The notes under the pieces: generated by a model | Seen by the model: only the letters and a program-made list of their open reading frames with translations | Database searches by the model: none | What the model was told of the DNA's origin: nothing | Assembly: GCF_050481745.1 (NCBI RefSeq) | Contig: NZ_JBCNGR010000013.1 | Span: 81,214-121,213, forward strand | DNA from: Paenibacillus algorifonticola | GTDB lineage: Bacteria; Bacillota; Bacilli; Paenibacillales; Paenibacillaceae | DNA: 40,000 nucleotides | Reading direction: 5' to 3' | Translations under genes and position numbers: made by a program | Shown: one piece after another, positions 1,383 to 18,497 of the stretch | Layout of the letters: each line of letters opens with the position of its first letter | Numbering within the stretch: the first letter of the stretch is position 1

Positions 1383-3904
1383 AATCCAACCTCCAATAGA
1401 AATTCAGTTAGTCTATATTTTTTAGATTGCAGCACATCAATCAGTAAACGGTTAGGTGCTTTGGATTCCTCCAAATATTCTGGGAGCAATGTAATGATAG
1501 GAAATGGATGCAAGTTTTGCTGAAGCATTCGTTCGATCGCATGCAATGTCGAATCCGTACACGGATGAATAACTACAGTTGGAACATGGAGCCATCGATA
1601 AAATGGAGTGTCTATATTGTTCGTAAATAGAGGCTCTGATTCCAGATGAAACTGTGATAAGTTAATTTCGTTCAAAAAAGCTTCTTCTGCGCATAGTTGT
1701 CGAACACCATGATCAATTAAATAACGCAAAAGCATACTCCATCTTTCCCTTTCTCGTCCGGACAGTCGACTAAATCTTCTTTCCGGCCATTGATCGAAGA
1801 ACAATACCGCATTTTCTTTGTTGTCCAATCGCCTGGATAACTGTTCGGTCAGTCCTGGTCGCTTCTGCCACTGGATCAATCGCGATACTGCCATATTTGC
1901 ATACGGATCTTGGGCCTCTCGTCTGCAATTTGGACAACCGCCGCAAGAGGTTTGAACGCCGATCGCTTTGCGCCTGTCCACACCCAAGCGTTCTGGAATA
2001 TGGTACATGATCTTAAAGATTTCTGCCGCGCAACGCTTCCCTTGCAATAGTTCCTTCATCAGCACAAGTGATGTCTCACTAGCCATAGAACTGACTAGCC
2101 TGAAAGGTTCCACTAAAGTCTTCCAAGCGACCTCCTGAAGATGATCGTTGTGCAGAATTCGCACAAGACGATGAGTGTTGCCGTTATATTCTGCTTTTGA
2201 ATAAGATTCATCCCATTTTTGCCAGTCCATCTCGATTAATTTGGAACGGGACATCAAGTTCAATGTTCTGATATTCCAGGCGGCATTGCGAGCGGATCCC
2301 CCCATATCAATATCTCTCGAATCAAGGGAAGGTGAGACATCAATTGGAACGAGGTAACAGTCTGGATATCGAATATCAATTTGTTTTTGCTGGAACATTG
2401 CTCTCCACCGCTGACGTCCGCGTTCAATGGTAATAAGCATTTTGCCACTCATCTCTTTGGCGATTCGAATATCTTCGTCCGTGTATACCACAAGCGACAT
2501 AGCAGCGCTGCCGTCGCGTCCACCGCGGCCAACTTCCTGATAGTAGCGATCCAAACTTTCGGGTACACAGGCATGGATAACTGCTCGTACATCTGGTTGG
2601 TCGACACCAAGGCCAAAGGCTGAAGTAGCGACAACAATGTCGATATCACGATTCCGCCAAGCGGAAACAATCGCCTCGCGCTTGCGGTTCGGGGTCTTAC
2701 CTGTAACTACTTCTAAACGACCATAACCCTCCGCCCTTAAAGTCGCCCCCCACTCCTCCGCATCCTTAACCTCCGATGTATAAAGAATAAGCGGGCGCGG
2801 CAAGTGGAAAACTGCATCAAGAATAAATCGTCTTTTATCTTGCATGTTGTTGGCCCGCTTGAACCAGTAGGCCGGTTCAGGTCGCAATTGTACGGCTGAG
2901 CAATGTTCGAACGGTCCAGGAGTCCCGAACAAATCTTCCATTGCATCCAAGGATACCTCCGTTATGGTCGCTGACAATAGTACCGTCCGAAGAGCAGGAG
3001 CCTCACGCATTAAATGTTTGCGCCAGCCAGCCAACTCTTGAAAAGCCGGCCTAAATTCATCGCCCCATAAATCGATCATATGTGCTTCGTCAATAAAGAG
3101 ATACCGAAAATATCCCCGGCCAGCTGCGAGTTGCAACGGCATAAACAGCGATTGCATGATTGCTTCTGGAGAAGTAAAGACAATTCGCTGCGTGCCGTCG
3201 CATATCCGACTGCGGATTCTCTCATTTTCCGCTTCCCGTCCACTAAAATATGCAGTTGAATGTGAAATAAAGGGGGCCATCGCTCGTTCCTGATCAATAG
3301 CCAGAGCCACTGTAGGGACAACAACGATTGACACCCCTTCAATTTCCGACGCCATAATCGAGGGTAGATGGGCACATAAACTTTTCCCTGTTCCAGTAGG
3401 AAGGTTAACCACCAACGTTGACCCTTCCGGTGCAGTCATTATGCTTCGTATCGCATCTGCTTGTCCCTGACTCCTGTATGTAGAAAGCTTCATCTTTAAT
3501 AAAAACGGATCCCCCTTGACAATTTGATTTGTCTGTCGAGGGATTTCTGCATATAAAGGCTTCTCAATATCAGTAATAGACGAATCAGGTAACCACTTAG
3601 GAATCCACGGTTGTGCCTTAATCAATAACCGATCACTTTTTTGAACGATGACTGCAATTCCTGATTCTTCCCACATGTGTGGATCGGGCCATTCTGAATT
3701 GCGCGGAACCCACAAGATGGACGATATGCCACCTTGTTTCTCCGCATTATGTCTCAAAATGCTGCGAATTAAAGACACCTTGTCGCGGGGCGAAGTTCTT
3801 CGCGAGTGCATACTATTTTTAAACCGCACATAAAAAGAAGTAATGAAATCTTCTGTCGAATGAGACGTTTCAATCAACTGCACAAATTCGTCATACTCAT
3901 TCAT
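1379..3904 (-). CDS. RecQ-family SF2 helicase with long uncharacterised N- and C-terminal extensions
   Basis: Helicase motifs: NLPTGTGKSL (I), VVVPTVALAIDQ (Ia), FIDEAHMIDLWGDEFRPAF (II, RecQ-type), LLSATIT (III), ATSAFGLGVDQPDVRAVIH (V), YYQEVGRGGRDG (VI). A CGGCPNC Cys cluster follows the core. I prefer ATG 3904 (SD GTGGAGA 6 nt upstream, ATGAATGA overlap with the SNF2 stop) over the ORF-track GTG 3925. Confidence 0.85.
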   Translation of the reverse strand: MNEYDEFVQLIETSHSTEDFITSFYVRFKNSMHSRRTSPRDKVSLIRSILRHNAEKQGGISSILWVPRNSEWPDPHMWEESGIAVIVQKSDRLLIKAQPWIPKWLPDSSITDIEKPLYAEIPRQTNQIVKGDPFLLKMKLSTYRSQGQADAIRSIMTAPEGSTLVVNLPTGTGKSLCAHLPSIMASEIEGVSIVVVPTVALAIDQERAMAPFISHSTAYFSGREAENERIRSRICDGTQRIVFTSPEAIMQSLFMPLQLAAGRGYFRYLFIDEAHMIDLWGDEFRPAFQELAGWRKHLMREAPALRTVLLSATITEVSLDAMEDLFGTPGPFEHCSAVQLRPEPAYWFKRANNMQDKRRFILDAVFHLPRPLILYTSEVKDAEEWGATLRAEGYGRLEVVTGKTPNRKREAIVSAWRNRDIDIVVATSAFGLGVDQPDVRAVIHACVPESLDRYYQEVGRGGRDGSAAMSLVVYTDEDIRIAKEMSGKMLITIERGRQRWRAMFQQKQIDIRYPDCYLVPIDVSPSLDSRDIDMGGSARNAAWNIRTLNLMSRSKLIEMDWQKWDESYSKAEYNGNTHRLVRILHNDHLQEVAWKTLVEPFRLVSSMASETSLVLMKELLQGKRCAAEIFKIMYHIPERLGVDRRKAIGVQTSCGGCPNCRREAQDPYANMAVSRLIQWQKRPGLTEQLSRRLDNKENAVLFFDQWPERRFSRLSGRERERWSMLLRYLIDHGVRQLCAEEAFLNEINLSQFHLESEPLFTNNIDTPFYRWLHVPTVVIHPCTDSTLHAIERMLQQNLHPFPIITLLPEYLEESKAPNRLLIDVLQSKKYRLTEFLLEVGL

Positions 3905-6900
3905 CGTAGTCTCCACGAAGCTCACTTCCCGATAATATTATAAAACCAACTGAATCCAAACGAACATGCGGCTTCTTAATGCCAGCCTGCATTGCTTGAT
4001 GTAAATCAGATTCGAAAGCCAAATCAATACGGTCGAATTGTCCATGAATTTGCTGCGTTTTGGCTCTTAACGCCAATTGCTGAAATTGTCGGTTTAATTC
4101 TTGGCGCATCGACTGCAGTGCTTCCTCACATGCCGTGACTACAGATGCATCTTGCATCAAAAGTCGTTCCGAACTTTCACGGGCACAGGCGCACGAGGTA
4201 TGCCACTGGTCAGGCGAGATAAATTCATCTATTACATTTAATCGTTCTTTGGTTAAATTCGTATCGTTACCAAAATCGCTTAATTTCTCAAACGGTGTTT
4301 TCAAGGCTTCTATAACATTGGAGTCATTCACCAGACTACCGCTTGGTGTTACGTTAACTGTGTATATAAAGGGCGGAAAAAACCTATCCAGTTTTCTTTG
4401 CAAAGCTTTTCTATTATATGCTTTACCGTCTATGGAAGAATAGATTGTTTCTGCTGCGGAGACGTTACCTTCGATGATATAATTGAAGCTAAACCCGAAC
4501 CACTCGAAACCTTTCTTGGGATTCCATCCCTTTACTTTGCGCCAAAATGCAAAGGTTCGCCCACGATCATCCCACTTTATGTCATCATCCAGCATTTGAA
4601 TAAAAGGATCTCCAATACGATATATTCGACAATTTTCTTGGGAGGCTGCCGTCATCCGATCATAACTGCCATACCTACTATTAATTTTCGCCATTGCAAT
4701 TGAAGTAGAGATAGGCAATAATGTTTGGCGAGTTGGGGAGTAAGTTAATTCCCCTGATTGTGCATTGGATGATTTACAAGCAAACTTCAGTGCATTAAGA
4801 ACCCACGCCTCCGTGTTCTTTTGAATACGTGCATGATCAGATTCATATGCCACCAAATTTCGAACATATCCATGCACATCGTCATAGCTCGAATCCATTT
4901 CGTCCAGTGCATTTTGTTCCTCTACTTGAATCCTTTCCTCCTCTAGGCGATCTGCGAAAGACTCCCTTACATAATGAATAAAACTTTGAGCACCCTCAGC
5001 ATAAAAGCGACCATAAATTTCTGGAAGGATTCGGTCGATCAGAAATTGCAATGACGAAATGGAGTTTTGAAACACCTTAAGTCCTTCATTCAAGAATATA
5101 TACCAAGCCTCAATCAATGATGGATGATCTGGTCCGGTGAATACATGGGTAGAAAACATTCGAGTACGTCCTAAACGATCTACACGACCTATTCTTTGCT
5201 CCATGCGGCCGGGTTGTGTAAGCAAATCAAAATGTACAATCATATCCGCAAATTGCAAATTGCGTCCTAACTCTCCTGAAGGATCGCAAACCAGTACCCA
5301 ACACTGCTCATTGTATCTAAAACGCTCAATTTCTTGTTCCACTTGGACATCGCTCAATGTTTTGAGATATGGGGCGATTGCCTCAGCTTTGTATACAGAT
5401 CTTAGATGATTAACGATGAAATTTGCCGTAGCATAGTGTCCCGCAAAAACAACAATTTTAGGTGACGTCTTTTTCTTTTTACGTGTCTGTTCCGTAACCG
5501 TATCAATGACCATGACAAGGTGATCCAACCTGTCCTCTTCTTCGGAAGAACAATCAACTGTGTGGAGCAATGACTCAAGTAACTCTCGTTCACCTGAAAA
5601 TAATGGTGTCTCGCGCAATAGTTCGGCCAATTCCGTATTGTAAAGTTCCTTGAATGAGTTGCTTATCTCTCCAGACAATCGCGCCTCTAGTACGTGCCGG
5701 AATACAGGAAGTGCAGAATTCGATAACTCCAATAAATAAAAAAATAACCTTTGATACTTAGTTGAGTGGGAAAATCCATATTCCTGCCATTCTTCCCTTT
5801 CTAAGGCCCACGACGTTTCACGCCATTCATCCATTAAATCCTGAACGGAGGCAGTTCGATTGTCAAAATCGTATTCCTCAGATACTGAGAGTTCACCGCG
5901 TTCAAGATCACGTCCGTACCTAAAAAGTTGTTTTACCGTATCACGACGATTTCGCAACATTCTCCGGTGCAGTCGGTACGTTTCCGTCAAATGATTCCTA
6001 ATAGTCCGTACGGCTGTTATACGTTTTTCTTCATCATTTTTATCCAGAGCATCTAGTAAATACTCCACATTACTGGTCATCAAAACGTCATCTGACACAA
6101 GTTCCAGCAATTTTTCAGCAGATCTACGTAAAAGAAGTGGCTTCGCATTCTCTCGTAAGGTGAACAATATTCTCCCCACATGTTGGCGAATAGAAATAAG
6201 TTTTTGAAATCTTTCAATCTCATCAAGATGGTAATGATCTGGATCTAATAAGTGAAGCATAGCTAGGAAATCTTGTTCATTATGAAGTACCGGTGTTGCA
6301 GATAACAACAACAACCCACGAGCTTGATTTGTTAACTTTTCGACCAAGTGATACAGTTCGCGCTCCTCTTCTATAAGACTCGATGCCTTCGCAGCAATGA
6401 TATGTGCTTCATCAATGATAATTAAATCCCAATCTTTCTCTTGCAGCAAGTTACTACTTGAAGACAACCTTTCAGTTGCACACCATGTAATCTGATCGGT
6501 GAATTCGTACAAATTACATTTGCTATGTAATTCTGATTGCCACTGAATCTGTAAAAATAAAGGAACCACAATGAGAACCGATGAGTTTGGATAATCCAAT
6601 AAAAACTGACGAATTATTACTCCTGCTTCAATCGTCTTTCCGAGACCCACCTCGTCTGCAAGCAAATATCGGGGGACTGGGTCTTCTGATACTCTCCGAA
6701 TAACTTCCACTTGATGGGGATACAGCGAAACAGAAGATGAAAGAAGACCTTCCATCCCACGTCCTACTTTTCGCTGATTCATCATTTCTTTTACAAAAAG
6801 GGTACGTTTACGATTAAAAAAAGCTGTCTCATGTCCCTTGTTGATGATAATATCCATGGGATCTTCAATAGGAAGTGAGCAACGGACAAACAAATTTTCT

Positions 6901-7319
6901 GAGTCAATGTAATTTGAATAGGAGTCAGGAAAGTCAACTTGATAATCTGTTCCATCAAATCCTGTGATACGGCCTATCATCCAGTGCTTTTTATTCGATT
7001 CCCAATAATAGCAACGTGTTTGAATGTCCGGCTTAACAAGTTGTATCTGGCTCAGTCCGATATTTAACCTTTTCCTATTTTCAATGGAAATGAAATACTC
7101 TACAGTTACCATTTCTTCAAACTGATCAATCACTTTTCCTATACCCATATTGTTTAGAGCGATAATGAATCTTCCAATTACATTTTCCATTAGAATAGTC
7201 CTATCCATTCCGAATTTATTGAATGCTATAATAAAAAAATTATCTCCAGAACATTTCAAGTGGTAATCCTTTCTATAAATGTTACCATAAAACCTAAGTA
7301 TAATCTTGCCAATATTCAA
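3897..7319 (-). CDS. SNF2/RapA-like helicase-ATPase with an extra ~450-aa C-terminal region
   Basis: Motifs: LLADEVGLGKTIEAG (I), IIIDEAHIIAA (II, DEAH), LLLSATPVLHNEQDF (III), GELGRNLQFADMIVHFDL and QRIGRVDRLGR (V/VI). The true start is probably an internal Met (ATG 7208 or 7190, MENVIGRF...). That would leave room for a divergent promoter region shared with the plus-strand MBL gene. Confidence 0.85.
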   Translation of the reverse strand: MNIGKIILRFYGNIYRKDYHLKCSGDNFFIIAFNKFGMDRTILMENVIGRFIIALNNMGIGKVIDQFEEMVTVEYFISIENRKRLNIGLSQIQLVKPDIQTRCYYWESNKKHWMIGRITGFDGTDYQVDFPDSYSNYIDSENLFVRCSLPIEDPMDIIINKGHETAFFNRKRTLFVKEMMNQRKVGRGMEGLLSSSVSLYPHQVEVIRRVSEDPVPRYLLADEVGLGKTIEAGVIIRQFLLDYPNSSVLIVVPLFLQIQWQSELHSKCNLYEFTDQITWCATERLSSSSNLLQEKDWDLIIIDEAHIIAAKASSLIEEERELYHLVEKLTNQARGLLLLSATPVLHNEQDFLAMLHLLDPDHYHLDEIERFQKLISIRQHVGRILFTLRENAKPLLLRRSAEKLLELVSDDVLMTSNVEYLLDALDKNDEEKRITAVRTIRNHLTETYRLHRRMLRNRRDTVKQLFRYGRDLERGELSVSEEYDFDNRTASVQDLMDEWRETSWALEREEWQEYGFSHSTKYQRLFFYLLELSNSALPVFRHVLEARLSGEISNSFKELYNTELAELLRETPLFSGERELLESLLHTVDCSSEEEDRLDHLVMVIDTVTEQTRKKKKTSPKIVVFAGHYATANFIVNHLRSVYKAEAIAPYLKTLSDVQVEQEIERFRYNEQCWVLVCDPSGELGRNLQFADMIVHFDLLTQPGRMEQRIGRVDRLGRTRMFSTHVFTGPDHPSLIEAWYIFLNEGLKVFQNSISSLQFLIDRILPEIYGRFYAEGAQSFIHYVRESFADRLEEERIQVEEQNALDEMDSSYDDVHGYVRNLVAYESDHARIQKNTEAWVLNALKFACKSSNAQSGELTYSPTRQTLLPISTSIAMAKINSRYGSYDRMTAASQENCRIYRIGDPFIQMLDDDIKWDDRGRTFAFWRKVKGWNPKKGFEWFGFSFNYIIEGNVSAAETIYSSIDGKAYNRKALQRKLDRFFPPFIYTVNVTPSGSLVNDSNVIEALKTPFEKLSDFGNDTNLTKERLNVIDEFISPDQWHTSCACARESSERLLMQDASVVTACEEALQSMRQELNRQFQQLALRAKTQQIHGQFDRIDLAFESDLHQAMQAGIKKPHVRLDSVGFIILSGSELRGDYDE

Positions 7320-7362: not shown

Positions 7363-8504
7363 ATGGATAGGTTTGTGTCTTTGAAGGTTGGACAAGGAGA
7401 TTCTTTTTATCTACAACGTGATAAATATTCAATACTTGTTGATGGTGGACTGGCGGAGAATGGTTTGGCTAAATTCTTCATGGGGGAGCGAGAAAAAATA
7501 ATCGGTAAAAAAAGATTGATGTATTAGTGTGTACTCACAATGATGCGGATCATGCCAATGGTATTCTCGGATTCTTAAAAAATGAAGAACTGTTATGTGA
7601 TGAAGTTTGGTTGCCTGGAATTTGGACAAGTAGATTAAAAGATATACTTGTTAAGCCTTCCATTTTTATTCATGAGCTAGTTCTTGATATTGATAGTAAT
7701 CATTTGGCATATGATCTGGCTACTCTCGGTGATTCTTACTCGGATAACGAGCTGCCGCTAGACAACAGAAATGAATCTGAGGAATATGTACAATTAGAAG
7801 AATTATATAGTGATCTAGAAGCATCTTTAGAAAAGAATTATGATATTCATGATGTAGCGCAATTTCATAGAGGTCCTTATCTATGGGGACTCTCCCCATC
7901 CCATATTGAATTATTTGTGGAAGCAATTAATGCCGCCAAACTTATTAAGGATATAGCAATTGCGGCTTTTCAGAAAGGTGCAAATATTAAATGGTTTGAG
8001 TATGATGAGTATCAATGCTCAGGCGGTATAGACGGTATATTAGAGCCGTTAAATTCAAAAGAAATTAGTACAGTGAAAAAACGAGGTGCTTTAGAATATC
8101 TAGCTCTTGCTATGGCAAATAGACAAAGCTTAGTATTCCATTCTCCTAGTTCTTCAAATGCACCTGCTATACTATTCTCTGCAGACTCTAATTTTGAATT
8201 TAAACAAACCATTCCTTGGTCAAACGGAATGATAATAACCGCATCACATCATGGTTCCAAAAGCAATAGTAATTGCTATCTTCGCTACGAAAATGAAAGA
8301 TCGGAGCATCTAAATTCTATTTGGATCCGTAGTGATGGTCGCTTTAGATCAAGACCTGGTCCTTGGTACTTAAAGATTCAATCTACGCAACGTTACTGCA
8401 CACGATGCAGCCCAGATTTTAAATCCTCACAAAATGTTGAGTTTACTGCTAATAAATCCGAATGGCAATCATCATCAATTGCATGTACATGTGGCCAAAA
8501 GTAA
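7363..8504 (+). pseudogene. MBL-fold (ComEC-like metallo-beta-lactamase) hydrolase gene split by a frameshift in an A7 run
   Basis: Frame A (7363..7527) reads MDRFVSLKVGQGDSFYLQRDKYSILVDGGLAENGLAKFFMGEREKIIGKKRLMY*. This is the usual MBL N-terminus (VGQGD...ILVDGG). Frame B (the ORF-track 7527..8504) continues with (I)DVLVCTHNDADHANG... and a later SHHGS motif. The two frames join at the A7 tract 7507..7513, and one extra A would give ...IGKKKIDVLVCTHNDADH. Confidence 0.7.
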
Positions 8505-8662: not shown

Positions 8663-8698
8663 AAAAAAACGAACACTCCCTAGGAACGGAATGTTCGT
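8663..8698 (-). terminator. Rho-independent terminator after queE
   Basis: On the minus strand: ACGAACA ... TGTTCGT, a 7-bp stem plus 3 further pairs after one mismatch, followed by a T6 run. It starts 10 nt after the queE stop. Confidence 0.6.
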
Positions 8699-8708
8699 AA
8701 TCTTCACT

Positions 8709-9443
8709 TCAAACCCCTCGCTTGTTCCCCCACAACAAAGTGTGTAACTGCGGGAGAACTTTAACCTGTTTCAACTCCGATGATACCATGACTTGATTAA
8801 TCAACCACTCATACCTCTCTAGTAAAGCAAATACCAAACTTTCTCTATCAACTGTCGTTACATCGCTATTTCCGACCTGCAAAACCAGTCTCATGTGAGG
8901 ATAGCGCTTATGAACTTTTATAGCATACTGAAGATCATCTTCGTCAAAAATGACTACTTTAATACATATTTCATTCGGACTATTATTCAAGTTCGTGATA
9001 ACCCCATCTAATCTATCCCAATCGGTTATCATTCCTGAACTTGGTGGTTTTGGGGAAACCGTCAAGTCGTCAATATCCGCCATCCAATCTTGCCATCTGC
9101 TTCCTTGTGTTTCTAACCCAACTCGAATCCCCTTATCATGAAGCAAATCGACCAAATATCCAATATTCTTTATAATTGCTGGATTACCGCCAGAAATTGT
9201 TACATGCTCGAACGTGGTTCCACCAAGAGAATTCAATTCATCGTAAATCGCTTGAGGAGACAATTGTTTAATTTCATTCTTTGCAGAACCATCCCATGTA
9301 AAGGATGAGTCACACCATGAACAGGAATAGTCACAACCAGCTGTCCGAACAAACATCGTTTTTTGCCCGATTACCAGGCCTTCCCCCTGAACAGTTGGCC
9401 CGAATATTTCTAAAACCGGGATAGGATTTTCTTTGTGAGTCAA
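8709..9443 (-). CDS. queE: 7-carboxy-7-deazaguanine synthase QueE (Bacillus-type radical SAM)
   Basis: Near-colinear with B. subtilis QueE as I recall it: PVLEIFGPTVQGEGLVIGQKTMFVRTAGCDYSCSWCDSSFTWDG ... VLPQLHTLLWGNKRGV. I prefer TTG 9443 (SD GGGAGTGGA 7 nt upstream, TTGA overlap with the queD stop). The ORF-track alternative is GTG 9455. Confidence 0.93.
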   Translation of the reverse strand: MTHKENPIPVLEIFGPTVQGEGLVIGQKTMFVRTAGCDYSCSWCDSSFTWDGSAKNEIKQLSPQAIYDELNSLGGTTFEHVTISGGNPAIIKNIGYLVDLLHDKGIRVGLETQGSRWQDWMADIDDLTVSPKPPSSGMITDWDRLDGVITNLNNSPNEICIKVVIFDEDDLQYAIKVHKRYPHMRLVLQVGNSDVTTVDRESLVFALLERYEWLINQVMVSSELKQVKVLPQLHTLLWGNKRGV

Positions 9444-9931
9444 TCTGCCATCCACTCCCGTCTTGCTTCAGCATAGCTGGTTGGCGTTTCGAATAACCGG
9501 ACAAACTCAGTTTTTGCGTCCACTTCTTTTGATGAGTATTTGTCCGTACTTAGCGCCGCTTCCATCTGCTCATACAGCCAAACAACTATGTTTTCCGCAG
9601 TCGTGTTCATTAATGGCAATGTTTCATTTAGATATCTGTGGTCTAAGAATGGTTCAATTTGCTCACGCCAAATTGTTTTCAGCATGCTAAAGTCTATCGT
9701 CAGGCCAATCTCATTTGTATAGCCACTTATTCCAAAAACCACCTTATAGGTATGGCCATGTAGATTTTTGCATTTGCCTTCATAAGCATGTAAATGATGC
9801 GCGGCGTCAAAAGTGAATTCCTTACTGACCAATACTCTGCGTTGATGATATTTTAACTGATCTTCAGTAATATCCTTTCCATACTTTTGCAATGCATCTA
9901 CAATGACAAATTGCCCTGGTACTTTATTCAT
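9440..9931 (-). CDS. queD: 6-carboxy-5,6,7,8-tetrahydropterin synthase QueD
   Basis: [28 protein letters not shown] matches the QueD/PTPS signature. ATG 9931 overlaps the queC stop (ATGA). The ORF-track start at 10003 lies inside queC and is an artefactual extension. Confidence 0.9.
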
Positions 9932-10599
9932 GACATTTGCTCCGAATTTCTTGTCTGTAAAAAAGTATCCAGACCAGCTTTTCTCAACTGACAAGCTGGA
10001 CAATTACCACAACCGTCACCGATAACCCCGTTATAGCAGGTTAATGTCTTCTTACGTACAAATTCAAAAGCACCTAACTGATCAGCCATCTCCCACGTCT
10101 CTGCTTTATTAATCCACATCAACGGAGTATGAATGATAAAGTTATGATCCATCGCTAAATTTAACGTTACATTTAGAGATTTAACGAAATCATCCCTACA
10201 GTCGGGATAGCCACTGAAATCTGTTTCGCATACACCTGTTACAATATGTCGAGCTCCTACTCCTTTAGCAAAGACCGCCGCGAAACTTAAAAATAAGTGG
10301 TTTCGTCCTTCTACAAATGTACTTGGAAGTTCGCCATCATTATGAACAATTTCTACGTCATCACGCGTCAACGCATTTTGAGTTAATTGGCCGAGTAGGC
10401 TCATATCAAGTAAAGTCCATTTTACTCCTAATTCATAAGCAATTTGCTTAGCACATTCAATTTCTAATGCATGCCTTTGACCATAATTGAAGGTGACAGC
10501 CTCCACCTCATCAAATTGCTTCATTGCCCAAAACAAACAAGTTGTACTATCTTGACCGCCACTAAATACAACAACGGCTTTTTTGTTTTTTTTATCCAT
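9928..10599 (-). CDS. queC: 7-cyano-7-deazaguanine (preQ0) synthase QueC
   Basis: [19 protein letters not shown] (PP-loop), [15 protein letters not shown], and the C-terminal zinc motif [16 protein letters not shown]. Colinear with B. subtilis QueC. Confidence 0.95.
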
Positions 10600-10667: not shown

Positions 10668-13600
10668 CTATTTATCGTCTCCAACAACTAATCTAATCTC
10701 TACAACATCAAACAAGTTGGGGAATTTTTCTTTAATCTCATCCAGCAGACGCTTCCATTGTATTGGAGGAAGTGTACTATATCCATTTTCGATAAGTAAT
10801 CGGATATGCCGTTTTATGGAGGGTCTAATTTGTGGGCTTTCGTTGATTTTTTCTAGTAGGTGATAGATACTTTCAACATCTTCACAATCAAAATCATTTC
10901 TGATTACTTGAAGAAGGTGCAATTTGGTCTGCTCATGTTGAAGTTTTCTTTCGATCCGATCTCTTAGTTCATAGAAATCTATAGATTGCCATTCAGCAAT
11001 TAAGGAACTTAATTCAGCACCAATGTGTTTCTTTTTTTTCAGACGATTTACACCATTCTCCAATCTAATCAGGAGTTTCTTTATATGCTCTAAATCCCCT
11101 AGCTTAATTTGAAGATCCAGCAGATACTTCACTAAATTTCGTGGAGTAAGAGCAAGGCAGTTTTTCAAACTTTCCAATTCCTGAATAATAATTATGAAGT
11201 TAGCTTTACCCGCCTCTAATTCAGACCAGTTTACTTCGTCCTTTTTATTGATTTTCGCTTCTTCTTGTTCATAATTTGTTTGCGCGCAACTCTCAGTGAG
11301 AAGACTTTCAACTTCAAGCATCATCTCGTCAAATTGTTTACTCAACTGTCTCATCTCACTAAATAAAATAGTAGCACTTTTATATTGAGCGGCGAGTGCT
11401 TGATCATCCAATTCTTGTTCCAGCAAAGTGTAAGCAACAAAGTCTTGTTGTGTAATACTCTTCTTCTCGCTAAAAGCTTTAATTTGTTCAGCAAGTTCTA
11501 TCAATTTCAAATTATTGGAGCCAAGTAAAAAAGGAATCATGTTCATCCTTTTTTCGAGTGACTGCTTAAAGCTATCTTGAAGTAGTTTAAAGTATTTATG
11601 GTAACTTTCTTTCAATTGGGATAGAAATACCCGTAGAGTAGTATCTCCAATTTGATAGTGTTCTAAGATTTTCGATGGCACAAGATTCATAAACCAATAA
11701 TCAAATTCTTCATTCGTCAAAACCGCTTTACTAGGCGGCTGAAAAAAGTTATCACGTAACAAGTACCAATCTGAATAACAATCCTCAAGAAGAGCTAATA
11801 ATTCTGTTCGGAATGGAGAATATTCAATTACATTTGAGGCCCAAGATGATTTGCTGTATATTTGAGCATTTTGAACCCAGTATTTCATCCCGTACACAAA
11901 TACAGGAAGATTCAACCCAAGAGCCTGTTCAAGAGAATTAAGCCATTCATCATGGATTGACTCTGCTTGATGTATCCATTTAGCAATTTCATATTCATTG
12001 GAATTTTTCTGAAACATCCTTACCTTTTCTGAATACTTCATGGTTTGAAAGTTGGCAATTTGAATAGCAATAAATCCTCTGCTGACGCTTATTGTAGACT
12101 CATCCTTGTTATTCTGGAGTGTAATCGGATACCTTGTTCGATTCACAACTTCATTTCGCTGAATGGATGATGAAGTTTTGGATGTGAATGAGCGGGACAT
12201 ATGAATTCCCTTTACAGCATCATGCACCAATGCAGCCACCCCCGATCTAACCGGCAATAATAATTCTTCATTTACATCTCTTCCTTCTACCCAATCTCTA
12301 ACCACTGCCTTTTCATTGAAGCCATTATTACTATCTTTTTTCGGCTCATCAAGTAATTGCTGCTCATCTCTTAAGCTACTTCCAACACTATTTAGTTTCA
12401 CAGTGATTTGATTATCCTTATATCCAAAGTACCTTAATACAGGTTCTGAAATTGTAATCTTCTCCGCTTCTTCAGAGGCATACCATTCTGCGAGAGTTTT
12501 GATAAAAACATCCGAATGCTCAGCGAACATCTCCCTCCTTATTATAGGAAGTATTCTACTAATATCTTTCTTACCTCTTAGAAAAAAGCGAATAACTTCT
12601 TTACTATTCAAAATCATGTAACGTAATTTCCCTTTTCCCATTGGAATTGCATCATACGTTCTCCTTAACATATGGCTATTAAATGGAAGCAACTGAACTT
12701 CAATATCATTTAATTTAGATTCAATCTCACTTGATTCCGTGGTAATACTTGAACATTGGTCGTAGTACGGACACTCAGGAGAGCATTTAAAGCCTTGTGT
12801 TGCTTTCAACTGTGTAAGGTACTTAGCCATATAAGGAATTACTTGTCCACGATCTAGGTTGAAAAAGTCTTTCCCTGATTCGTCAGATAGCCATAACTTT
12901 TTTACCCGGTCATTTATGGTGTCAAGATTTTGGATTCTTTGTGTAAGACTGAATCCTTTTTCTGTATCCTGAACCGCGCCAGGCGTTAGACCAATTACTA
13001 CATCCCAATTCCCCTCTTCTAATGTAATAAGTTGATCCAATATATTGGTTGCGTAAATATTAACCGATTGAACAAGATCGTCAATGAGAAGCAATGGACG
13101 GATACCCTTGCTTTTTATCTGCTGGGATAATTGTTTAAACAGGGTTCCAATGTCCCGTCCTTCAAACAGAAAATGGTCCAGTTTCCGAGAAAGTGTTTGT
13201 CGAAATGTTGCATACTCCAGGGGGATATTAACAGTCGTGTTAACAAGTAACGATTCGAATTGCTCACGATGTAGAACTTCTAGTGGTTTTTTGATTCTTC
13301 CTCGTTTAACTTGAGAAGTAAATTCTACAATATTCTTCTCAATTATTGATCTCAACAATAGTGCTGCTGGAACAATTTCCTCATCGGATTCTAGCGATTC
13401 GGCAAGTGCCGTCCAGACCATTTGGTTAACAAGCGTAATAGGCTTTTTGAGTAATAGCCCCCACTTATCTTCGTCAATACAAACATCTAAAGACAAATTT
13501 AATGCGTCTAAACATTTTTTGATTAGTGTCTGGGGGTTTAACTCTGTCCGTGAAATTCGTATCACCGGTCGTTCAGATACTTCCACTAACCATTTATCTT

Positions 13601-13859
13601 TTATCCAACGAAGCAGTTCAGATTTCCCTGATCCCGTCGAGCCAAATACTAAATAAACCCTGTTGCCATCGGAATCAACTTCTTTGAGTTCTTCCAGCAA
13701 TTCGCCTTCCGTAACCTCAGCGATCAGATGACTGTCATTAAATCTATGCATTACTTGAGGGAAATGGGTTTTTCTAAAATACTCAGGTGATTGGTCGTAA
13801 CGCTCGTCTGCAGTTCCTACTAAAAGTTTAAGCGAATTTTTGTTGAGACAAGGCATCAT
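10668..13859 (-). CDS. Large (1063 aa) P-loop NTPase with a long helical, coiled-coil-like C-terminal half
   Basis: Walker A is VFGSTGSGKSE (residues ~72-80) and Walker B-like is RPLLLIDDLVQ (~255-263). The start ATGATG at 13859 has SD GAGAGGGGA 10 nt upstream. It overlaps the upstream ORF by 32 nt. It is paralogous to the partial ORF at 1..487. Confidence 0.8.
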   Translation of the reverse strand: MMPCLNKNSLKLLVGTADERYDQSPEYFRKTHFPQVMHRFNDSHLIAEVTEGELLEELKEVDSDGNRVYLVFGSTGSGKSELLRWIKDKWLVEVSERPVIRISRTELNPQTLIKKCLDALNLSLDVCIDEDKWGLLLKKPITLVNQMVWTALAESLESDEEIVPAALLLRSIIEKNIVEFTSQVKRGRIKKPLEVLHREQFESLLVNTTVNIPLEYATFRQTLSRKLDHFLFEGRDIGTLFKQLSQQIKSKGIRPLLLIDDLVQSVNIYATNILDQLITLEEGNWDVVIGLTPGAVQDTEKGFSLTQRIQNLDTINDRVKKLWLSDESGKDFFNLDRGQVIPYMAKYLTQLKATQGFKCSPECPYYDQCSSITTESSEIESKLNDIEVQLLPFNSHMLRRTYDAIPMGKGKLRYMILNSKEVIRFFLRGKKDISRILPIIRREMFAEHSDVFIKTLAEWYASEEAEKITISEPVLRYFGYKDNQITVKLNSVGSSLRDEQQLLDEPKKDSNNGFNEKAVVRDWVEGRDVNEELLLPVRSGVAALVHDAVKGIHMSRSFTSKTSSSIQRNEVVNRTRYPITLQNNKDESTISVSRGFIAIQIANFQTMKYSEKVRMFQKNSNEYEIAKWIHQAESIHDEWLNSLEQALGLNLPVFVYGMKYWVQNAQIYSKSSWASNVIEYSPFRTELLALLEDCYSDWYLLRDNFFQPPSKAVLTNEEFDYWFMNLVPSKILEHYQIGDTTLRVFLSQLKESYHKYFKLLQDSFKQSLEKRMNMIPFLLGSNNLKLIELAEQIKAFSEKKSITQQDFVAYTLLEQELDDQALAAQYKSATILFSEMRQLSKQFDEMMLEVESLLTESCAQTNYEQEEAKINKKDEVNWSELEAGKANFIIIIQELESLKNCLALTPRNLVKYLLDLQIKLGDLEHIKKLLIRLENGVNRLKKKKHIGAELSSLIAEWQSIDFYELRDRIERKLQHEQTKLHLLQVIRNDFDCEDVESIYHLLEKINESPQIRPSIKRHIRLLIENGYSTLPPIQWKRLLDEIKEKFPNLFDVVEIRLVVGDDK

Positions 13860-14604: not shown

Positions 14605-15502
14605 GCTCGCTCCTCCTCTTATTATTTTCTAAAATATCGTTAAATGTTCTAAGTAAGTGGTAATAGTTATGGATTGATCTTAACTTCATATATTCTCTTG
14701 GAGATGGGACTAAGATCTGCTTTGCGTCATTTTCACATACAGGGCATTCACAATTAAGTGGATTTTCCAATCGTGGACTTGTGGGTTTAGCTCGCGATTC
14801 TGAGAGAAAAAAGGTTCTAAATGGTCTGCTATAGAACACTTGAAAGAACGCTGCCGCCATTGTTGGTCGTGTTGAATCAAATGAACTTACGCCAATATCA
14901 ACCATTGCACTAAGTTGGGGAATTCCTGTTACTCCAAATACATGCAGGTTTGAAGGCCCTACAACATCTGCTGCCCTTCTGATCATTTCAATTTGCTGCG
15001 TCTGATGTCTAAAAAGTAACGATCCAATTCCAAATTTCTTATACCCCATCTTGATCAACTCATAAGCTGAAAACTCAATACTAGCTTGGTCATAACCTTG
15101 AATGACTCCCATTGCTTGAACAGATTTCGGAAGATTATATTTATGAAAAATATTGAAATACTCATAAGCATTGAATAGCGTTCTTTCTATAGCCATGAAA
15201 CGTTCAGATAAAGAGGACTTATTTAACAGTGGTTCATCAAAATGAACCATTTGAACATTTGTTTTTTTTTCGCAATCTTCTAAGATTGAGAGCTGAATAT
15301 CAAAAACTTCTTTTAGTGGAGGCCTAATTTTTTGTTTAACATAAAACACTGATCCACAGTCTAGTATTAGCTTGCTAGGTTTATTTTTATACCTTTTTAC
15401 TCCTCCTCTATTGTCCGGTATAGCACTAATTAAAACCGGACATTGAGGAAAGTAATCACAAAATACTGCATCACTGTGTGACCAACCAATATAAAATTCC
15501 AT
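14570..15502 (-). CDS. Second, compact TGT-superfamily (DpdA-like) protein
   Basis: Matches to the 684-aa ORF: ILDCGSVFY (cf. MGDCGAFSY), GVIQGYD...MGYKKFGIGSL (cf. GIVQGWD...LGYDYIALGGL), GVSSFDSTRPT (cf. E. coli Tgt GVDMFDCVMPTR). The zinc motif is CECPVCEN...HNYYH. I prefer ATG 15502 (MEFYIGW..., SD GAAGGAG 8 nt upstream). The ORF-track start at 15580 has no usable SD and sits upstream of a candidate promoter. Confidence 0.75.
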   Translation of the reverse strand: MEFYIGWSHSDAVFCDYFPQCPVLISAIPDNRGGVKRYKNKPSKLILDCGSVFYVKQKIRPPLKEVFDIQLSILEDCEKKTNVQMVHFDEPLLNKSSLSERFMAIERTLFNAYEYFNIFHKYNLPKSVQAMGVIQGYDQASIEFSAYELIKMGYKKFGIGSLLFRHQTQQIEMIRRAADVVGPSNLHVFGVTGIPQLSAMVDIGVSSFDSTRPTMAAAFFQVFYSRPFRTFFLSESRAKPTSPRLENPLNCECPVCENDAKQILVPSPREYMKLRSIHNYYHLLRTFNDILENNKRRSEHVVSNVLRTGN

Positions 15503-16460: not shown

Positions 16461-18497
16461 CTATTTATCCCATCGTTTTTTTAATTCCTGGATCTGAGTG
16501 TAGTAGACATGGGTATTGTGAAACCCTCTCCGTCTGTTTCTATTATTACCCCTAAATACAATCACATCAATTCCAATTTCCCTGCATATATTACAACCAC
16601 ATTGTTCCCATGGACGTTCAGACAAAACCTCTCTATAAAGATCCTCATGAACTTCGCGCTTTTCCCCAAGTATTTTATCATACTCCAGTATAGCTTCAAG
16701 TGTGGGTTCTAGTTCTCTTGTTCCCGCACTGAAATTCCTAAGAGCACTTAATGCCTCCTGTTCAAGCCTTCTATACTCCGCAAACTCAATTTCATCACTA
16801 TTCTGCAACATTTTTTTCACTCTTCCAGATGTTTCTTTCGCTTCTGGGATTCTAATCGCTGTGTAATGTTTACCACTCAAGGAGTGATAATTATGCCCTG
16901 TTCCTAACCACGCTCTTCTCAACGGAGAAGAAGAGTCAAATGATGTTACACCTAATTTATGAAAAGACTCCATTGTTCTCACATCTCGCGCAACACCGAA
17001 CAAGTGCATCCGAAACGTAGGGCTTGGAATAATAGGAGATATTTCTTTTAGAATCTCATATATTTTCTCAGATTGTTCTCTAGCTAAACCACCTAGGGCA
17101 ATATAGTCATAACCTAATTCAATAAGATGCTCTACTGCTCTTCGGAAAGAAGGCGGGTCCCATCCTTGGACTATACCTATAGGATGGAACTGATAATTCC
17201 TGGTTTCTCTGTCCTCCCTATACATGCGTATAAATTCTTCCGCCATAGTAAGGGTTAGTTCATAACGCTGATTTCTAATATTTTCGTCTCTCTGGAAGGG
17301 ACCCACTATTAGATGGTCAATTGATACCCCATAATCAAAACCCAAGTTGTGGTAGTAATCCATAATCTCTTGGGTCGTATACGGCGGTACTTCTTTATCA
17401 ATATAACTAAAGGCACCACAATCCCCCATAATCGGGTATTCCCTAGGTAGTCGATAAAAATCATGTAACCCCATATCTTTTATCATCTGATTTTTTTGCT
17501 TAGTAGCATTATCAATATTAACTTTAGAAACAAGCAGTCCATCAAACTGAGGTCTTTCAAAAATCTGATGAGCGTACACATCATTTTCTAATGGATTTCT
17601 GTTTTTTTCTGAAAAATCAGCCATAAAATCATAGTGTGGATCGACTCTATCATCATTCTCTGGAAGATAAAATCTGGGTTCCTCAATGCAATTTATAGCT
17701 ACTAACTCATCTGGTACAGGAAACATTTCATTATAGAACTGTAATAAATCTTCTTTTTCAGATGCGTCACTAAATAACTCAGGTTGTTTTGTTGAAGCAA
17801 TTGAATCCAAAATAAACTCTCTAATCTGATCAGGATGATATTTTATTGTTCTCCACTTCTGTTCAATGTTATCTGTAATAATATTCCTCAGTAAGTGTGC
17901 AAAAAGATAACCTTTGATTCCTATCAAACCATATTTAAATGTTTTAGCTTCTTTTTCTCCAATAGTTAATACATGATAATCGTCCCAGTTTAGAATTCGA
18001 GAACGACTAGATGCTCCTGCGAAAAAGATCGCTTTTTGATTACTTTGCAACTTTAATGGCCACTCCACCGCTTGCAAATATTTGTCTCCAAGTAAGAAGA
18101 ATACAAGATCATAATCAGCAATTTTTTTTTGTAGATTTTGTGTGACTTCAAGTTGACGCGCCCACTTTTTTATAGTCTGCGAGTCCATTGTATTAAAAGT
18201 CACTTCATACGGTACAATTTGCGCATCTTCATTCAAAAGACCATAACCCGCTGAAATAATGCAAAGATCAATTTTCCCACCTTGTTTCCGGTATTCTTTA
18301 ATACCACTCATTAGCGCAAGGTGTTGACTCCCTGTATACATTTCATCAGCACGTTCTCTGAATTCCAACAATTCTGCTTCTCTTTGTTTTAATATTTTTT
18401 TATTCTTGAAATCATCAAATACAAGTTGATTTATTGGTTTATGTAACTTCTCTCCAGTACAAGAAGTGACAACAAGAATACGTTTTGACACAAACAT
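16461..18497 (-). CDS. DpdA-like TGT-superfamily transglycosylase fused to an N-terminal ~280-aa domain
   Basis: The C-terminal ~400 aa read RFYLPENDDRVDPHYDF..., MGDCGAFSY, GIVQGWD, GVTSFDSSSPLRRA, with zinc motif CGCNIC...GFHNTH. The N-terminal part reads ILVVTSCTGEK...CIISAGYGLLNEDAQIVPYEVTF. That pattern reminds me of YaaA/DUF328-type proteins ([21 protein letters not shown]), but this is weak recall. The start is probably ATG 18497 or GTG 18491, not the ORF-track GTG 18515. Confidence 0.8.
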   Translation of the reverse strand: MFVSKRILVVTSCTGEKLHKPINQLVFDDFKNKKILKQREAELLEFRERADEMYTGSQHLALMSGIKEYRKQGGKIDLCIISAGYGLLNEDAQIVPYEVTFNTMDSQTIKKWARQLEVTQNLQKKIADYDLVFFLLGDKYLQAVEWPLKLQSNQKAIFFAGASSRSRILNWDDYHVLTIGEKEAKTFKYGLIGIKGYLFAHLLRNIITDNIEQKWRTIKYHPDQIREFILDSIASTKQPELFSDASEKEDLLQFYNEMFPVPDELVAINCIEEPRFYLPENDDRVDPHYDFMADFSEKNRNPLENDVYAHQIFERPQFDGLLVSKVNIDNATKQKNQMIKDMGLHDFYRLPREYPIMGDCGAFSYIDKEVPPYTTQEIMDYYHNLGFDYGVSIDHLIVGPFQRDENIRNQRYELTLTMAEEFIRMYREDRETRNYQFHPIGIVQGWDPPSFRRAVEHLIELGYDYIALGGLAREQSEKIYEILKEISPIIPSPTFRMHLFGVARDVRTMESFHKLGVTSFDSSSPLRRAWLGTGHNYHSLSGKHYTAIRIPEAKETSGRVKKMLQNSDEIEFAEYRRLEQEALSALRNFSAGTRELEPTLEAILEYDKILGEKREVHEDLYREVLSERPWEQCGCNICREIGIDVIVFRGNNRNRRRGFHNTHVYYTQIQELKKRWDK

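What the first reader, a model, noticed from the sequence alone, without database searches (positions are those of the whole stretch)
7363..8504. MBL-fold hydrolase gene interrupted at an A7 homopolymer: phase variation, slippage or decay
The N-terminal 50 codons (VGQGDSFY...ILVDGG) and the rest of the protein (DVLVCTHNDADHANG... to GQK*) lie in different frames that meet at AAAAAAA (7507..7513). An eighth A, a -1 slip on GGT AAA AAA AGA, or transcriptional slippage would produce one ~380-aa protein. Several other A/T runs of 8-9 nt in island genes remain in frame. The break sits in the only plus-strand, nuclease-like gene, wedged between the helicase arm and the modification arm. A potentially toxic effector being switched on and off at a homopolymer would be notable for a Firmicute defence island.
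Basis: seen in the sequence. Interest (0 to 1): 0.6.

Follow-up and report, generated by a model that had tools for sequence, protein, structure and literature searches.

The report
Accessory nuclease-like gene broken at poly-A
An accessory metallo-hydrolase gene lodged inside a Dpd anti-phage island is switched off by the loss of one A from a run of eight, an ordinary and probably recent slippage mutation, not a programmed recoding signal.

Summary
Frame 1 (7363-7527, 54 codons) and frame 3 (open 7509-8504) can only be joined within 7509-7524, which overlaps the A7 run at 7507-7513. One extra A gives a 380-aa protein, the length of the nearest intact orthologue (89% identity).

The gene belongs to an uncurated family of more than 200 proteins of about 380-400 aa. 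They have a ComEC-like MBL fold, a helical insert and a C-terminal Cys cluster. The family has no conserved partner gene and is not linked to Dpd outside this lineage.

The two nearest orthologues keep the dpdE / MBL / queE-D-C order, read in one frame and carry GAAAACAAG instead of a run. The tract is therefore lineage-specific, not a conserved recoding or contingency site.

- A7 is below the usual length for transcriptional slippage.
- The 0-frame heptamer T AAA AAA is not canonical.
- The downstream RNA fold is not significant.

All 72 conserved family positions survive and dN/dS is not raised, so the break is young. Frame junctions at A/T runs do not increase with run length genome-wide, which argues against systematic homopolymer errors.

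Other family members are broken at other places. The finding is ordinary and of low interest.

The parts
7363..7527 (+). 5' fragment of the MBL-fold gene. It has 54 codons in frame 1, of which the first 50 are orthologous (GQGD and LVDGG motifs). It ends at TAG 7525-7527 after four out-of-frame codons.
   Evidence: 65% identity to residues 1-52 of the intact orthologue P0002. PADLOC RTasMBL hit for residues 7-50.
7507..7513 (+). A7 homopolymer where the two frames meet. The inferred ancestral state is A8 (GGT AAA AAA AAG).
   Evidence: The frame-overlap window 7509-7524 follows. Alignment A1 shows the window one base short against three intact orthologues. This is the only indel in the gene against L003.
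7509..8504 (+). 3' part of the MBL-fold gene in frame 3 (331 open codons; the gene caller's ORF starts at GTG 7527). It carries the H-N-D-x-D-H motif, the helical insert, the SLVF, ADS, HHGS and RSDG motifs, and the C-terminal CTxC...CxC cluster.
   Evidence: 203 homologues; best intact hit 89% identity, 380 aa. All 44 invariant and all 28 columns conserved at 90% or more are kept.
7458..7517 (+). Short hypervariable patch encoding the loop between LVDGG and (I/V)D(I/V)LVCTH. It is 62% identical to L003 and L004, against 85-100% in the flanks. The A run arose inside it.
   Evidence: Sliding identity. N-part dS 0.66 against C-part dS 0.12. The loop is variable across the family.
3897..7319 (-). 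dpdE (SNF2 helicase), the divergently oriented left neighbour.
   Evidence: PADLOC DpdE, E = 1.4e-218. Synteny kept in L003.
8709..10599 (-). queE-queD-queC, the convergent right neighbours and start of the modification arm.
   Evidence: Pfam Radical_SAM, PTPS and QueC. Same order in L003 and L004.

Best explanation
The gene encodes a stand-alone ComEC-like metallo-beta-lactamase-fold phosphodiesterase, probably a nuclease. It has a helical insert and a C-terminal Cys cluster that may bind zinc. It travels as solitary accessory cargo and, in this lineage, has lodged between the restriction arm and the modification arm of a complete Dpd island.

In this genome, substitutions in a variable surface loop produced an A8 run (GGT AAA AAA AAG). 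Replication slippage then removed one A. Translation now stops after 54 codons, and the remaining 330 codons are out of frame. The gene is therefore off, a young frameshift pseudogene.

A7 and A8 tracts are slippage-prone, so reversion is physically possible at a low rate. Nothing indicates that the switch is selected for or programmed.

What is shown: the frame anatomy, the one-base deficit against intact orthologues, the lineage-specific tract, and the absence of further decay. What is inferred: the A8 ancestor, replication slippage as the cause, and the nuclease activity.
For: - Frames meet only at 7509-7524, which holds the run.
- The intact orthologues P0002 (89%, 380 aa), P0003 (82%) and P0004 (66%) read in one frame. 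The window is exactly one base short. An A8 allele would have the same loop length as all three.
- The relatives carry GAAAACAAG, so the run is new in this lineage.
- All 72 conserved family columns are retained.
- dN/dS between window and L003 is 0.41, against 0.375 (0.39 in the 3' part) for the two intact genes L003 and L004, so the break is recent.
- The rate of frame junctions at A/T runs is flat for run lengths 4 to 7 (9.3, 10.4, 11.4, 11.4 per 1000), no higher at length 8 (4.0, 2 of 496), and close to random sites (9.4). The assembly therefore has no systematic homopolymer indel errors.
- Other family members are broken elsewhere: L056 at T7/A7 runs, L040 by a one-base loss outside any run, and L046 many times.
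- Firmicute precedents exist for 5'-proximal poly(A) inactivation: swrA A9->A8 at 1e-4 and A8->A9 at 1e-5, and inlA A7->A6 (PMC2831843).
- Fold: the AF2 model has pLDDT 90 and pTM 0.91. The best PDB match is the ComEC MBL domain 9ic4, E = 1.7e-8.
Against:
- No second assembly or strain carrying this allele was found. A consensus error at this one site therefore cannot be excluded, and neither can A7/A8 heterogeneity.
- The gene shows no decay at all apart from the frameshift. That fits a very recent loss, but equally a switchable gene or an artefact.
- The position of the tract in the first 13% of the ORF is also what contingency loci show.
Confidence: 0.6

Rival explanations
1. Sequencing or assembly artefact. 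The organism really has A8 and an intact 380-aa gene, and the draft consensus dropped one A.
For: The draft assembly has 109 contigs. The break is a single base in a homopolymer, and the gene is otherwise perfect. No independent copy of the allele is available for checking.
Against: Genome-wide, the frequency of frame junctions at A/T runs does not rise with run length and equals that of random sites. The T8 and T9 runs in neighbouring island genes are in frame. From general knowledge, a 109-contig, 7.2-Mb draft looks like short-read data, where errors at 7-nt runs are rare.
Confidence: 0.15
2. Selected phase variation (a contingency locus). The tract is kept because reversible A7/A8 switching turns a costly nuclease off and on within the population.
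For: The poly(A) tract lies at codons 49-51 of 380. 5'-proximal tracts of similar length switch in the Firmicutes B. subtilis (swrA) and L. monocytogenes (inlA) (PMC2831843). The gene is otherwise undamaged. A second family member is also broken at T7/A7 runs near its 5' end (L056).
Against: The tract is not conserved. The two nearest orthologues have an interrupted AAAACAA and a fixed frame. Runs of 7 are commonplace, with 2,372 in this genome. Published insertion (reversion) rates for such lengths are only about 1e-5 to 7e-6. The other breaks in the family are at different sites, and one is not in a run. No population data exist.
Confidence: 0.15
3. Programmed recoding. A -1 ribosomal frameshift on the A run, or RNA polymerase slippage that adds an A, produces a controlled small amount of full-length enzyme.
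For: A -1 shift or one added A does yield the full protein. A hairpin can be drawn directly after the run at -18 kcal/mol. From general knowledge, lysine AAA codons are shift-prone.
Against: The site is not conserved in orthologues, which are single-frame. The 0-frame heptamer is T AAA AAA, not X XXY YYZ. The hairpin is not better than shuffles (z = -0.99) and leaves only about one base of spacer. The GGGGGAG word lies about 19-25 nt upstream, too far to act as a dnaX-type stimulator (general knowledge). Selection against transcriptional slippage starts at about 9 nt, or 8 in some genomes (PMC1088944). This genome's own census drops 16-fold from runs of 8 to runs of 9 (496 to 31).
Confidence: 0.05

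Closest known systems
5'-proximal poly(A)/poly(T) frameshift inactivation in bacteria: B. subtilis swrA (A8/A9), L. monocytogenes inlA (A7->A6), C. coli flhA (T8/T7). Source: Orsi et al. 2010, PMC2831843.
   Same: A one-base change in a 7-9-nt A/T run early in an ORF truncates an accessory protein. The mechanism is strand slippage and the change is in principle reversible.
   Different: In those cases, alleles of both lengths were seen in strains or cultures and switching rates were measured. Here only one allele is known, and the tract is absent from the nearest relatives.
Beta-lactamase-like nuclease domain of ComEC (PDB 9ic4; TIGR00361 ComEC_Rec2)
   Same: It is the best structural match to the intact orthologue (E = 1.7e-8, TM 0.69 on the target). 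The motifs GQGD, (L/I)VDGG and TH-x-D-x-DH are shared.
   Different: The protein has no membrane or OB-fold competence domains. TIGR00361 scores 14 bits against a cut-off of 190. It also has an extra helical insert of about 120 residues and a C-terminal Cys cluster.
Avs1a, the MBL-fold protein of AVAST type 1 (NCBIfam NF041809), and other defence-linked MBL proteins (PADLOC RTasMBL, LmuA variant, PDC-M48B)
   Same: Similar size (387 aa) and similar N-terminal MBL motifs. Often found among defence genes.
   Different: Only the first ~70 residues match, at 41 bits against a cut-off of 420. No STAND NTPase, reverse transcriptase or LmuB partner lies beside it.
Canonical Dpd 7-deazaguanine restriction-modification island (dpdA-K)
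   Same: The gene sits inside such an island, between dpdE and queE, and that position is kept in two related contigs.
   Different: No Dpd profile matches it. Two other islands with a DpdE of 38-39% identity lack it. None of 43 genomic loci of the wider family carries the que, TGT or DpdF-H genes; a few show only weak partial DpdE-like (SNF2) matches.

Membership tests
Metallo-beta-lactamase fold superfamily (Pfam PF00753) | Profile match above the gathering score | tested here: inconclusive
   The window pieces give no Pfam hit. The intact orthologue P0002 scores 21.9 bits against a cut-off of 22.7. Family members P0006, P0019 and P0044 score about 34 bits and pass.
Metallo-beta-lactamase fold superfamily (Pfam PF00753) | Alpha-beta/beta-alpha sandwich fold with metal-binding motifs (Asp of motif 1; H-x-H-x-D-H or a variant; later His and Asp) | tested here: met
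   The AF2 model of P0002 has pLDDT 90 and pTM 0.91. Foldseek hits are all MBL proteins, with ComEC 9ic4 on top. Invariant D13-equivalent, H59, D61, D63, H64, D275, H296 and H297 are all kept in the window. The motif 2 variant is H-N-D-x-D-H.
ComEC/Rec2 competence protein (TIGR00361) | Full-length profile match, with the membrane competence domain as well as the MBL domain | tested here: not met
   14.2 bits against a cut-off of 190, covering only profile positions 446-510. The protein has 380 aa, and no other domain was detected.
Avs1a (NF041809) | Equivalog-level profile match | tested here: not met
   41 bits against a cut-off of 420, over residues 10-76 only. No Avs or STAND model hit the neighbouring genes. 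The only P-loop protein nearby (10668-13859) matched DpdH.
Dpd system component | Matches a Dpd profile and co-occurs with dpd genes across genomes | tested here: not met
   No Dpd model hits it. It is absent beside dpdE in L053 and L054. The que, TGT and DpdF-H genes are absent from all 43 loci of the wider family, and a few loci show only weak partial DpdE-like (SNF2) matches. It lies between dpdE and the que genes only in the close relatives L003 and L004.
Programmed -1 ribosomal frameshift site | Slippery heptamer X XXY YYZ in the 0 frame | tested here: not met
   The 0-frame reading is GGT AAA AAA AGA, which gives the heptamer T AAA AAA.
Programmed -1 ribosomal frameshift site | Site and two-frame layout conserved among orthologues | tested here: not met
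   P0002, P0003 and P0004 are single-frame and lack the run. More than 100 listed homologues of about 380-400 aa appear as single full-length products.
Programmed -1 ribosomal frameshift site | Stimulatory downstream structure at 5-8 nt | tested here: inconclusive
   A hairpin starts immediately after the run, at -18 kcal/mol with z = -0.99.
Transcriptional-slippage gene | A or T run of about 9 or more (8 in some genomes), conserved among homologues | tested here: not met
   The run is 7 nt and is not conserved. The threshold comes from PMC1088944. The genome census falls from 496 runs of 8 to 31 runs of 9.
Phase-variable contingency locus | Hypermutable simple repeat within the 5' part of the ORF | tested here: met
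   A7 lies at codons 49-51 of 380. The length is at the low end of known switching tracts.
Phase-variable contingency locus | Tract length polymorphic between strains or within a culture | not testable with these tools
No other copy of the allele was found in genomes, metagenomes or plasmids. The nearest relatives have an interrupted tract.

The most novel reading that the evidence does not exclude
The A7/A8 tract is a working on/off switch for an auxiliary ComEC-like nuclease that this Dpd island lineage has recruited. Most cells would keep the costly enzyme off, while rare A8 revertants carry an extra effector layer. Alternatively, rare slippage supplies trace amounts of the enzyme.
Probability: 0.1. 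Interest if true: 0.5.

Novelty: new member of a known kind. Interest (0 to 1): 0.22.

Why it matters
For annotation, this locus should be called a frameshifted pseudogene of an uncharacterised MBL-fold family. It should not be called a recoded gene or a Dpd component. The Dpd island itself is complete without it.

The modest wider value lies in the family. It has more than 200 members across many phyla, a ComEC-like nuclease fold with a helical insert and a C-terminal Cys cluster, no curated model and no fixed partner gene. It is often found among defence or mobile genes and is repeatedly found broken. A nuclease that is expensive to keep would behave this way, and that idea could be tested with the intact orthologues.

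Tried and rejected
- **Other copies of the allele.** All of these found nothing:
  - DNA search in 60 relatives.
  - Protein search in 73 other species of the genus.
  - An exact-pattern scan of metagenome contigs allowing A6-A9.
  - A close-relative scan of metagenomes.
  - Plasmid and phage collections by DNA and protein. Only four distant plasmid homologues turned up.
  - Identity look-ups of both window ORFs.
- **Genome-wide junction scan.** The first version missed stops that overlap a run, and so missed this very site. It was replaced.
- **Shine-Dalgarno filter.** A start-codon/SD filter meant to separate gene junctions from frameshifts was uninformative, because 23 of 30 candidates lacked an SD word. 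It was dropped.
- **Short family members as further breaks at the same loop.** P0062 is merely a late start call and its upstream sequence is in frame. P0098 is truly broken, but about 25 codons earlier.
- **Conserved partner gene.** None was found in 33 loci, and the neighbours sampled are heterogeneous.
- **Literature link between Dpd and MBL proteins.** None was found.
- **Two-piece (split) enzyme.** Rejected on inference. The 3' ORF would start at GTG inside beta-strand 4, has no SD-like word upstream, and would lack three core strands.

Full report
**Observation.** The plus strand at 7500-7529 reads aatcggt-AAAAAAA-gattgatgtattagtg.
- Frame 1 starts at ATG 7363 and encodes MDRFVSLKVGQGDSFYLQRDKYSILVDGGLAENGLAKFFMGEREKIIGKK. 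It then runs four more codons to TAG 7525-7527.
- Frame 3 is closed by TAA 7506-7508. It is then open for 331 codons to TAA 8502-8504 and reads KKIDVLVCTHNDADHANG...CTCGQK.
- A single shift can join the two frames only within 7509-7524, which overlaps the A7 run at 7507-7513.
- An eighth A gives GGT AAA AAA AAG ATT and a 380-aa product.
- The genome has 2,906 A/T runs of 7 or more in 7.2 Mb. A 16-nt window would overlap one by chance about 1% of the time, so the indel almost certainly happened in the run.

**What the gene is.**
- The 3' piece finds 203 homologues, nearly all 370-430 aa. The best are P0002 (89% identity, 380 aa), P0003 (82%, 394 aa) and P0004 (66%, 379 aa, named from Paenibacillus).
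- A 28-sequence alignment (A2) shows 44 invariant columns. They include GQGD, (L/I)VDGG, C-T-H-x-D-x-D-H, SLVF, ADS, HHG, RSDG and a C-terminal CTxC...CxC cluster.
- Curated libraries see only the first ~70 residues. Lactamase_B sits at or just around its cut-off, Avs1a scores 41 bits against 420, and ComEC_Rec2 scores 14 against 190. PADLOC gives motif-level hits to RTasMBL, an LmuA variant, PDC-M48B and Avs1a.
- An AlphaFold2 model of P0002 with A2 is confident, with pLDDT 90.2 and pTM 0.91.
- Its best PDB match is the beta-lactamase-like domain of ComEC (9ic4, E = 1.7e-8, TM 0.69 on the target). Next come the Pce phosphorylcholine esterase and the beta-CASP and RNase J nucleases.
- I read the protein as a ComEC-like MBL phosphodiesterase, probably a nuclease, with a helical insert of about 120 residues and a possible zinc ribbon. 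The activity is inferred, not shown.
- The frameshift falls in the surface loop between strand 3 (LVDGG) and strand 4 (IDVLV). The 54-aa product therefore lacks every metal ligand after the first Asp.

**Context.**
- The window holds DpdG, DpdF and DpdE, then QueE, QueD and QueC, a second DpdH/DpdG-like pair, a second TGT and a DpdC-DpdA fusion.
- Left of the window, the same contig carries DpdH, a 236-aa ORF, DpdJ, DpdK (PLD type) and DpdD (L051). The Dpd restriction arm is therefore complete.
- The MBL gene is the only plus-strand gene of the island, but it is not the island's only nuclease-like gene.
- The two nearest contigs, L003 and L004, keep the order dpdE / MBL / queE-queD-queC.
- Elsewhere the gene is independent of Dpd.
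  - P0004 sits among unrelated genes.
  - None of 43 genomic loci from many phyla carries the que, TGT or DpdF-H genes; a few show only weak partial DpdE-like (SNF2) matches.
  - No neighbour is conserved across 33 loci.
  - The neighbours sampled are OLD/AAA_15 ATPases, a WYL regulator, an IS110 transposase, an AAA+ protein and metabolic genes.
- Two other Bacilli genomes with a DpdE of 38-39% identity have no MBL gene beside it.
- The gene was not found in 73 other species of the genus.
- It is best described as solitary accessory cargo that entered this island lineage.

**The tract compared with orthologues.**
- In alignment A1 the window is one base short between ATAAT and GATTGAT. L003 and L004 read ATATTAGAAAACAAGATT (I L E N K I) where the window reads AT-CGGTAAAAAAAGATT.
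- Over the whole gene this is the only indel between the window and L003.
- With A8 the loop has the same length in all four genes.
- The run lies in a 60-nt patch (7458-7517) that is only 62% identical to L003 and L004, while the flanks are 85-100% identical. dS is 0.66 in the 5' part against 0.12 in the 3' part.
- The A run is therefore a lineage-specific by-product of change in a variable loop, not a conserved signal.

**Is the gene decaying?**
- All 44 invariant columns and all 28 columns conserved at 90% or more are intact in the two window pieces.
- dN/dS between window and L003 is 0.41 overall and 0.45 in the 3' part. For the two intact genes L003 and L004 it is 0.375 overall and 0.39 in the 3' part.
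- No relaxation is detectable, so the break is young relative to about 12% synonymous divergence.

**Assembly error?**
- As an indirect test, I counted places in the whole genome where two long open frames meet within 10 codons of an A/T run.
- The rate is 9.3, 10.4, 11.4, 11.4 and 4.0 per 1000 for runs of 4, 5, 6, 7 and 8. It is 9.4 per 1000 at random sites.
- Length-dependent homopolymer errors would make this rate climb with run length, and it does not.
- The T8 and T9 runs in queC, the DpdH-like gene, TGT2 and the DpdC-DpdA fusion are in frame.
- An artefact is therefore unlikely but not excluded. I give it 0.15.

**Programmed recoding?**
- Orthologues are single-frame and lack the run.
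- The 0-frame heptamer is T AAA AAA.
- The only SD-like word, GGGGGAG, is about 19-25 nt upstream.
- The downstream hairpin is no better than shuffles (z = -0.99) and leaves almost no spacer.
- For RNA polymerase slippage, Baranov et al. found that selection against A/T runs starts at about 9 nt, or 8 in a few genomes (PMC1088944).
- This genome's own census falls 16-fold from 496 runs of 8 to 31 runs of 9, while runs of 7 number 2,372.
- I give programmed recoding 0.05.

**Phase variation?**
- Mechanistically, the event is the same as in known Firmicute cases. These are swrA (A9->A8 at about 1e-4, A8->A9 at about 1e-5), inlA (A7->A6) and, outside the Firmicutes, flhA (T8->T7 at 3e-4, T7->T8 at 7e-6) (PMC2831843).
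- Reversion from A7 to A8 is thus possible, but at a low rate.
- Against a selected switch, the tract is not conserved and no length polymorphism is known.
- Also against it, the family is broken in other ways elsewhere.
  - L056 (P0098) has a frame break at adjacent T7 and A7 runs about 25 codons earlier.
  - L040 has lost one base outside any run.
  - L046 is broken several times.
- This is the pattern of sporadic loss of a dispensable or costly gene.
- I give selected phase variation 0.15.

**Verdict.**
- The most likely account (0.6) is a real, recent A8->A7 slippage mutation. It has switched off an accessory ComEC-like MBL gene lodged in a complete Dpd island.
- This is a new instance of a well-known kind of event in an uncharacterised gene family.
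- Interest is low. It would rise only if reads or cultures showed A7/A8 heterogeneity.
- The earlier notes of this scan on the same window (Dpd island layout, homopolymer list) agree with what I re-tested. The scan has not reported this family on other DNA.

Noticed in passing
window 7458-7517 and 7637-7756: The MBL gene is mosaic among the three close relatives. A 60-nt patch just before the tract is 62% identical between the window and L003/L004, which are 98% alike there. At 7637-7756, L004 is only 65-68% identical to both the window and L003, while those two are 92-97% alike. Short recombination or gene-conversion patches are likely.
   Followed up: partly
L056:1465-1500: A second family member (P0098, seen on three contigs) has its first ~25 codons (MFEDSRFMALPVGQGDSFF) in a different frame from the rest. 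The break lies at adjacent T7 and A7 runs, and losing one base from either run would restore the family's spacing.
   Followed up: partly
L040:10735-10760; L046:322-1050: Two MAG copies of the family are pseudogenes. L040 (Terriglobales) has lost one base outside any homopolymer. L046 (Bathyarchaeota) is split over three frames and has internal deletions.
   Followed up: partly
L051 (contig C13 62000-81800, left of the window): The rest of the Dpd restriction arm lies here: DpdH (1042 aa), a 236-aa ORF in the DpdI position, DpdJ (1504 aa), DpdK (171 aa) and DpdD (932 aa). Next comes a 622-aa protein with AbiO, Nhi and PDC-S41 matches, so the defence island extends further left.
   Followed up: partly
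window 15262-15270 and 18122-18130: Two T9 runs lie in island genes (TGT2 and the DpdC-DpdA fusion). The whole 7.2-Mb genome has only 38 A/T runs of 9 or more, so about 0.2 would be expected in 40 kb. The island is enriched in the run lengths at which slippage becomes efficient.
   Followed up: no
L054 (G382:C5:56299-62580): In a same-family genome, dpdE (39% identity) is followed directly by a homologue of the second DpdH-like ATPase, with no MBL or que genes between them. The dpdE match there contains one in-frame TAA.
   Followed up: no
window 8669-8698 (minus strand): A terminator-like hairpin (11 pairs plus a T run) lies just after queE. It is the only terminator-like signal between the convergent MBL and que genes. 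No plus-strand sigma-70-like promoter was picked up ahead of the MBL gene by the simple scan.
   Followed up: no
plasmid records NZ_CP044118.1, NZ_CP025194.1, NZ_CP155766.1: Distant members of the family (23-26% identity) occur on small plasmids of Roseomonas and Sphingomonas, including one of 4.9 kb. This fits a mobile, stand-alone gene.
   Followed up: no
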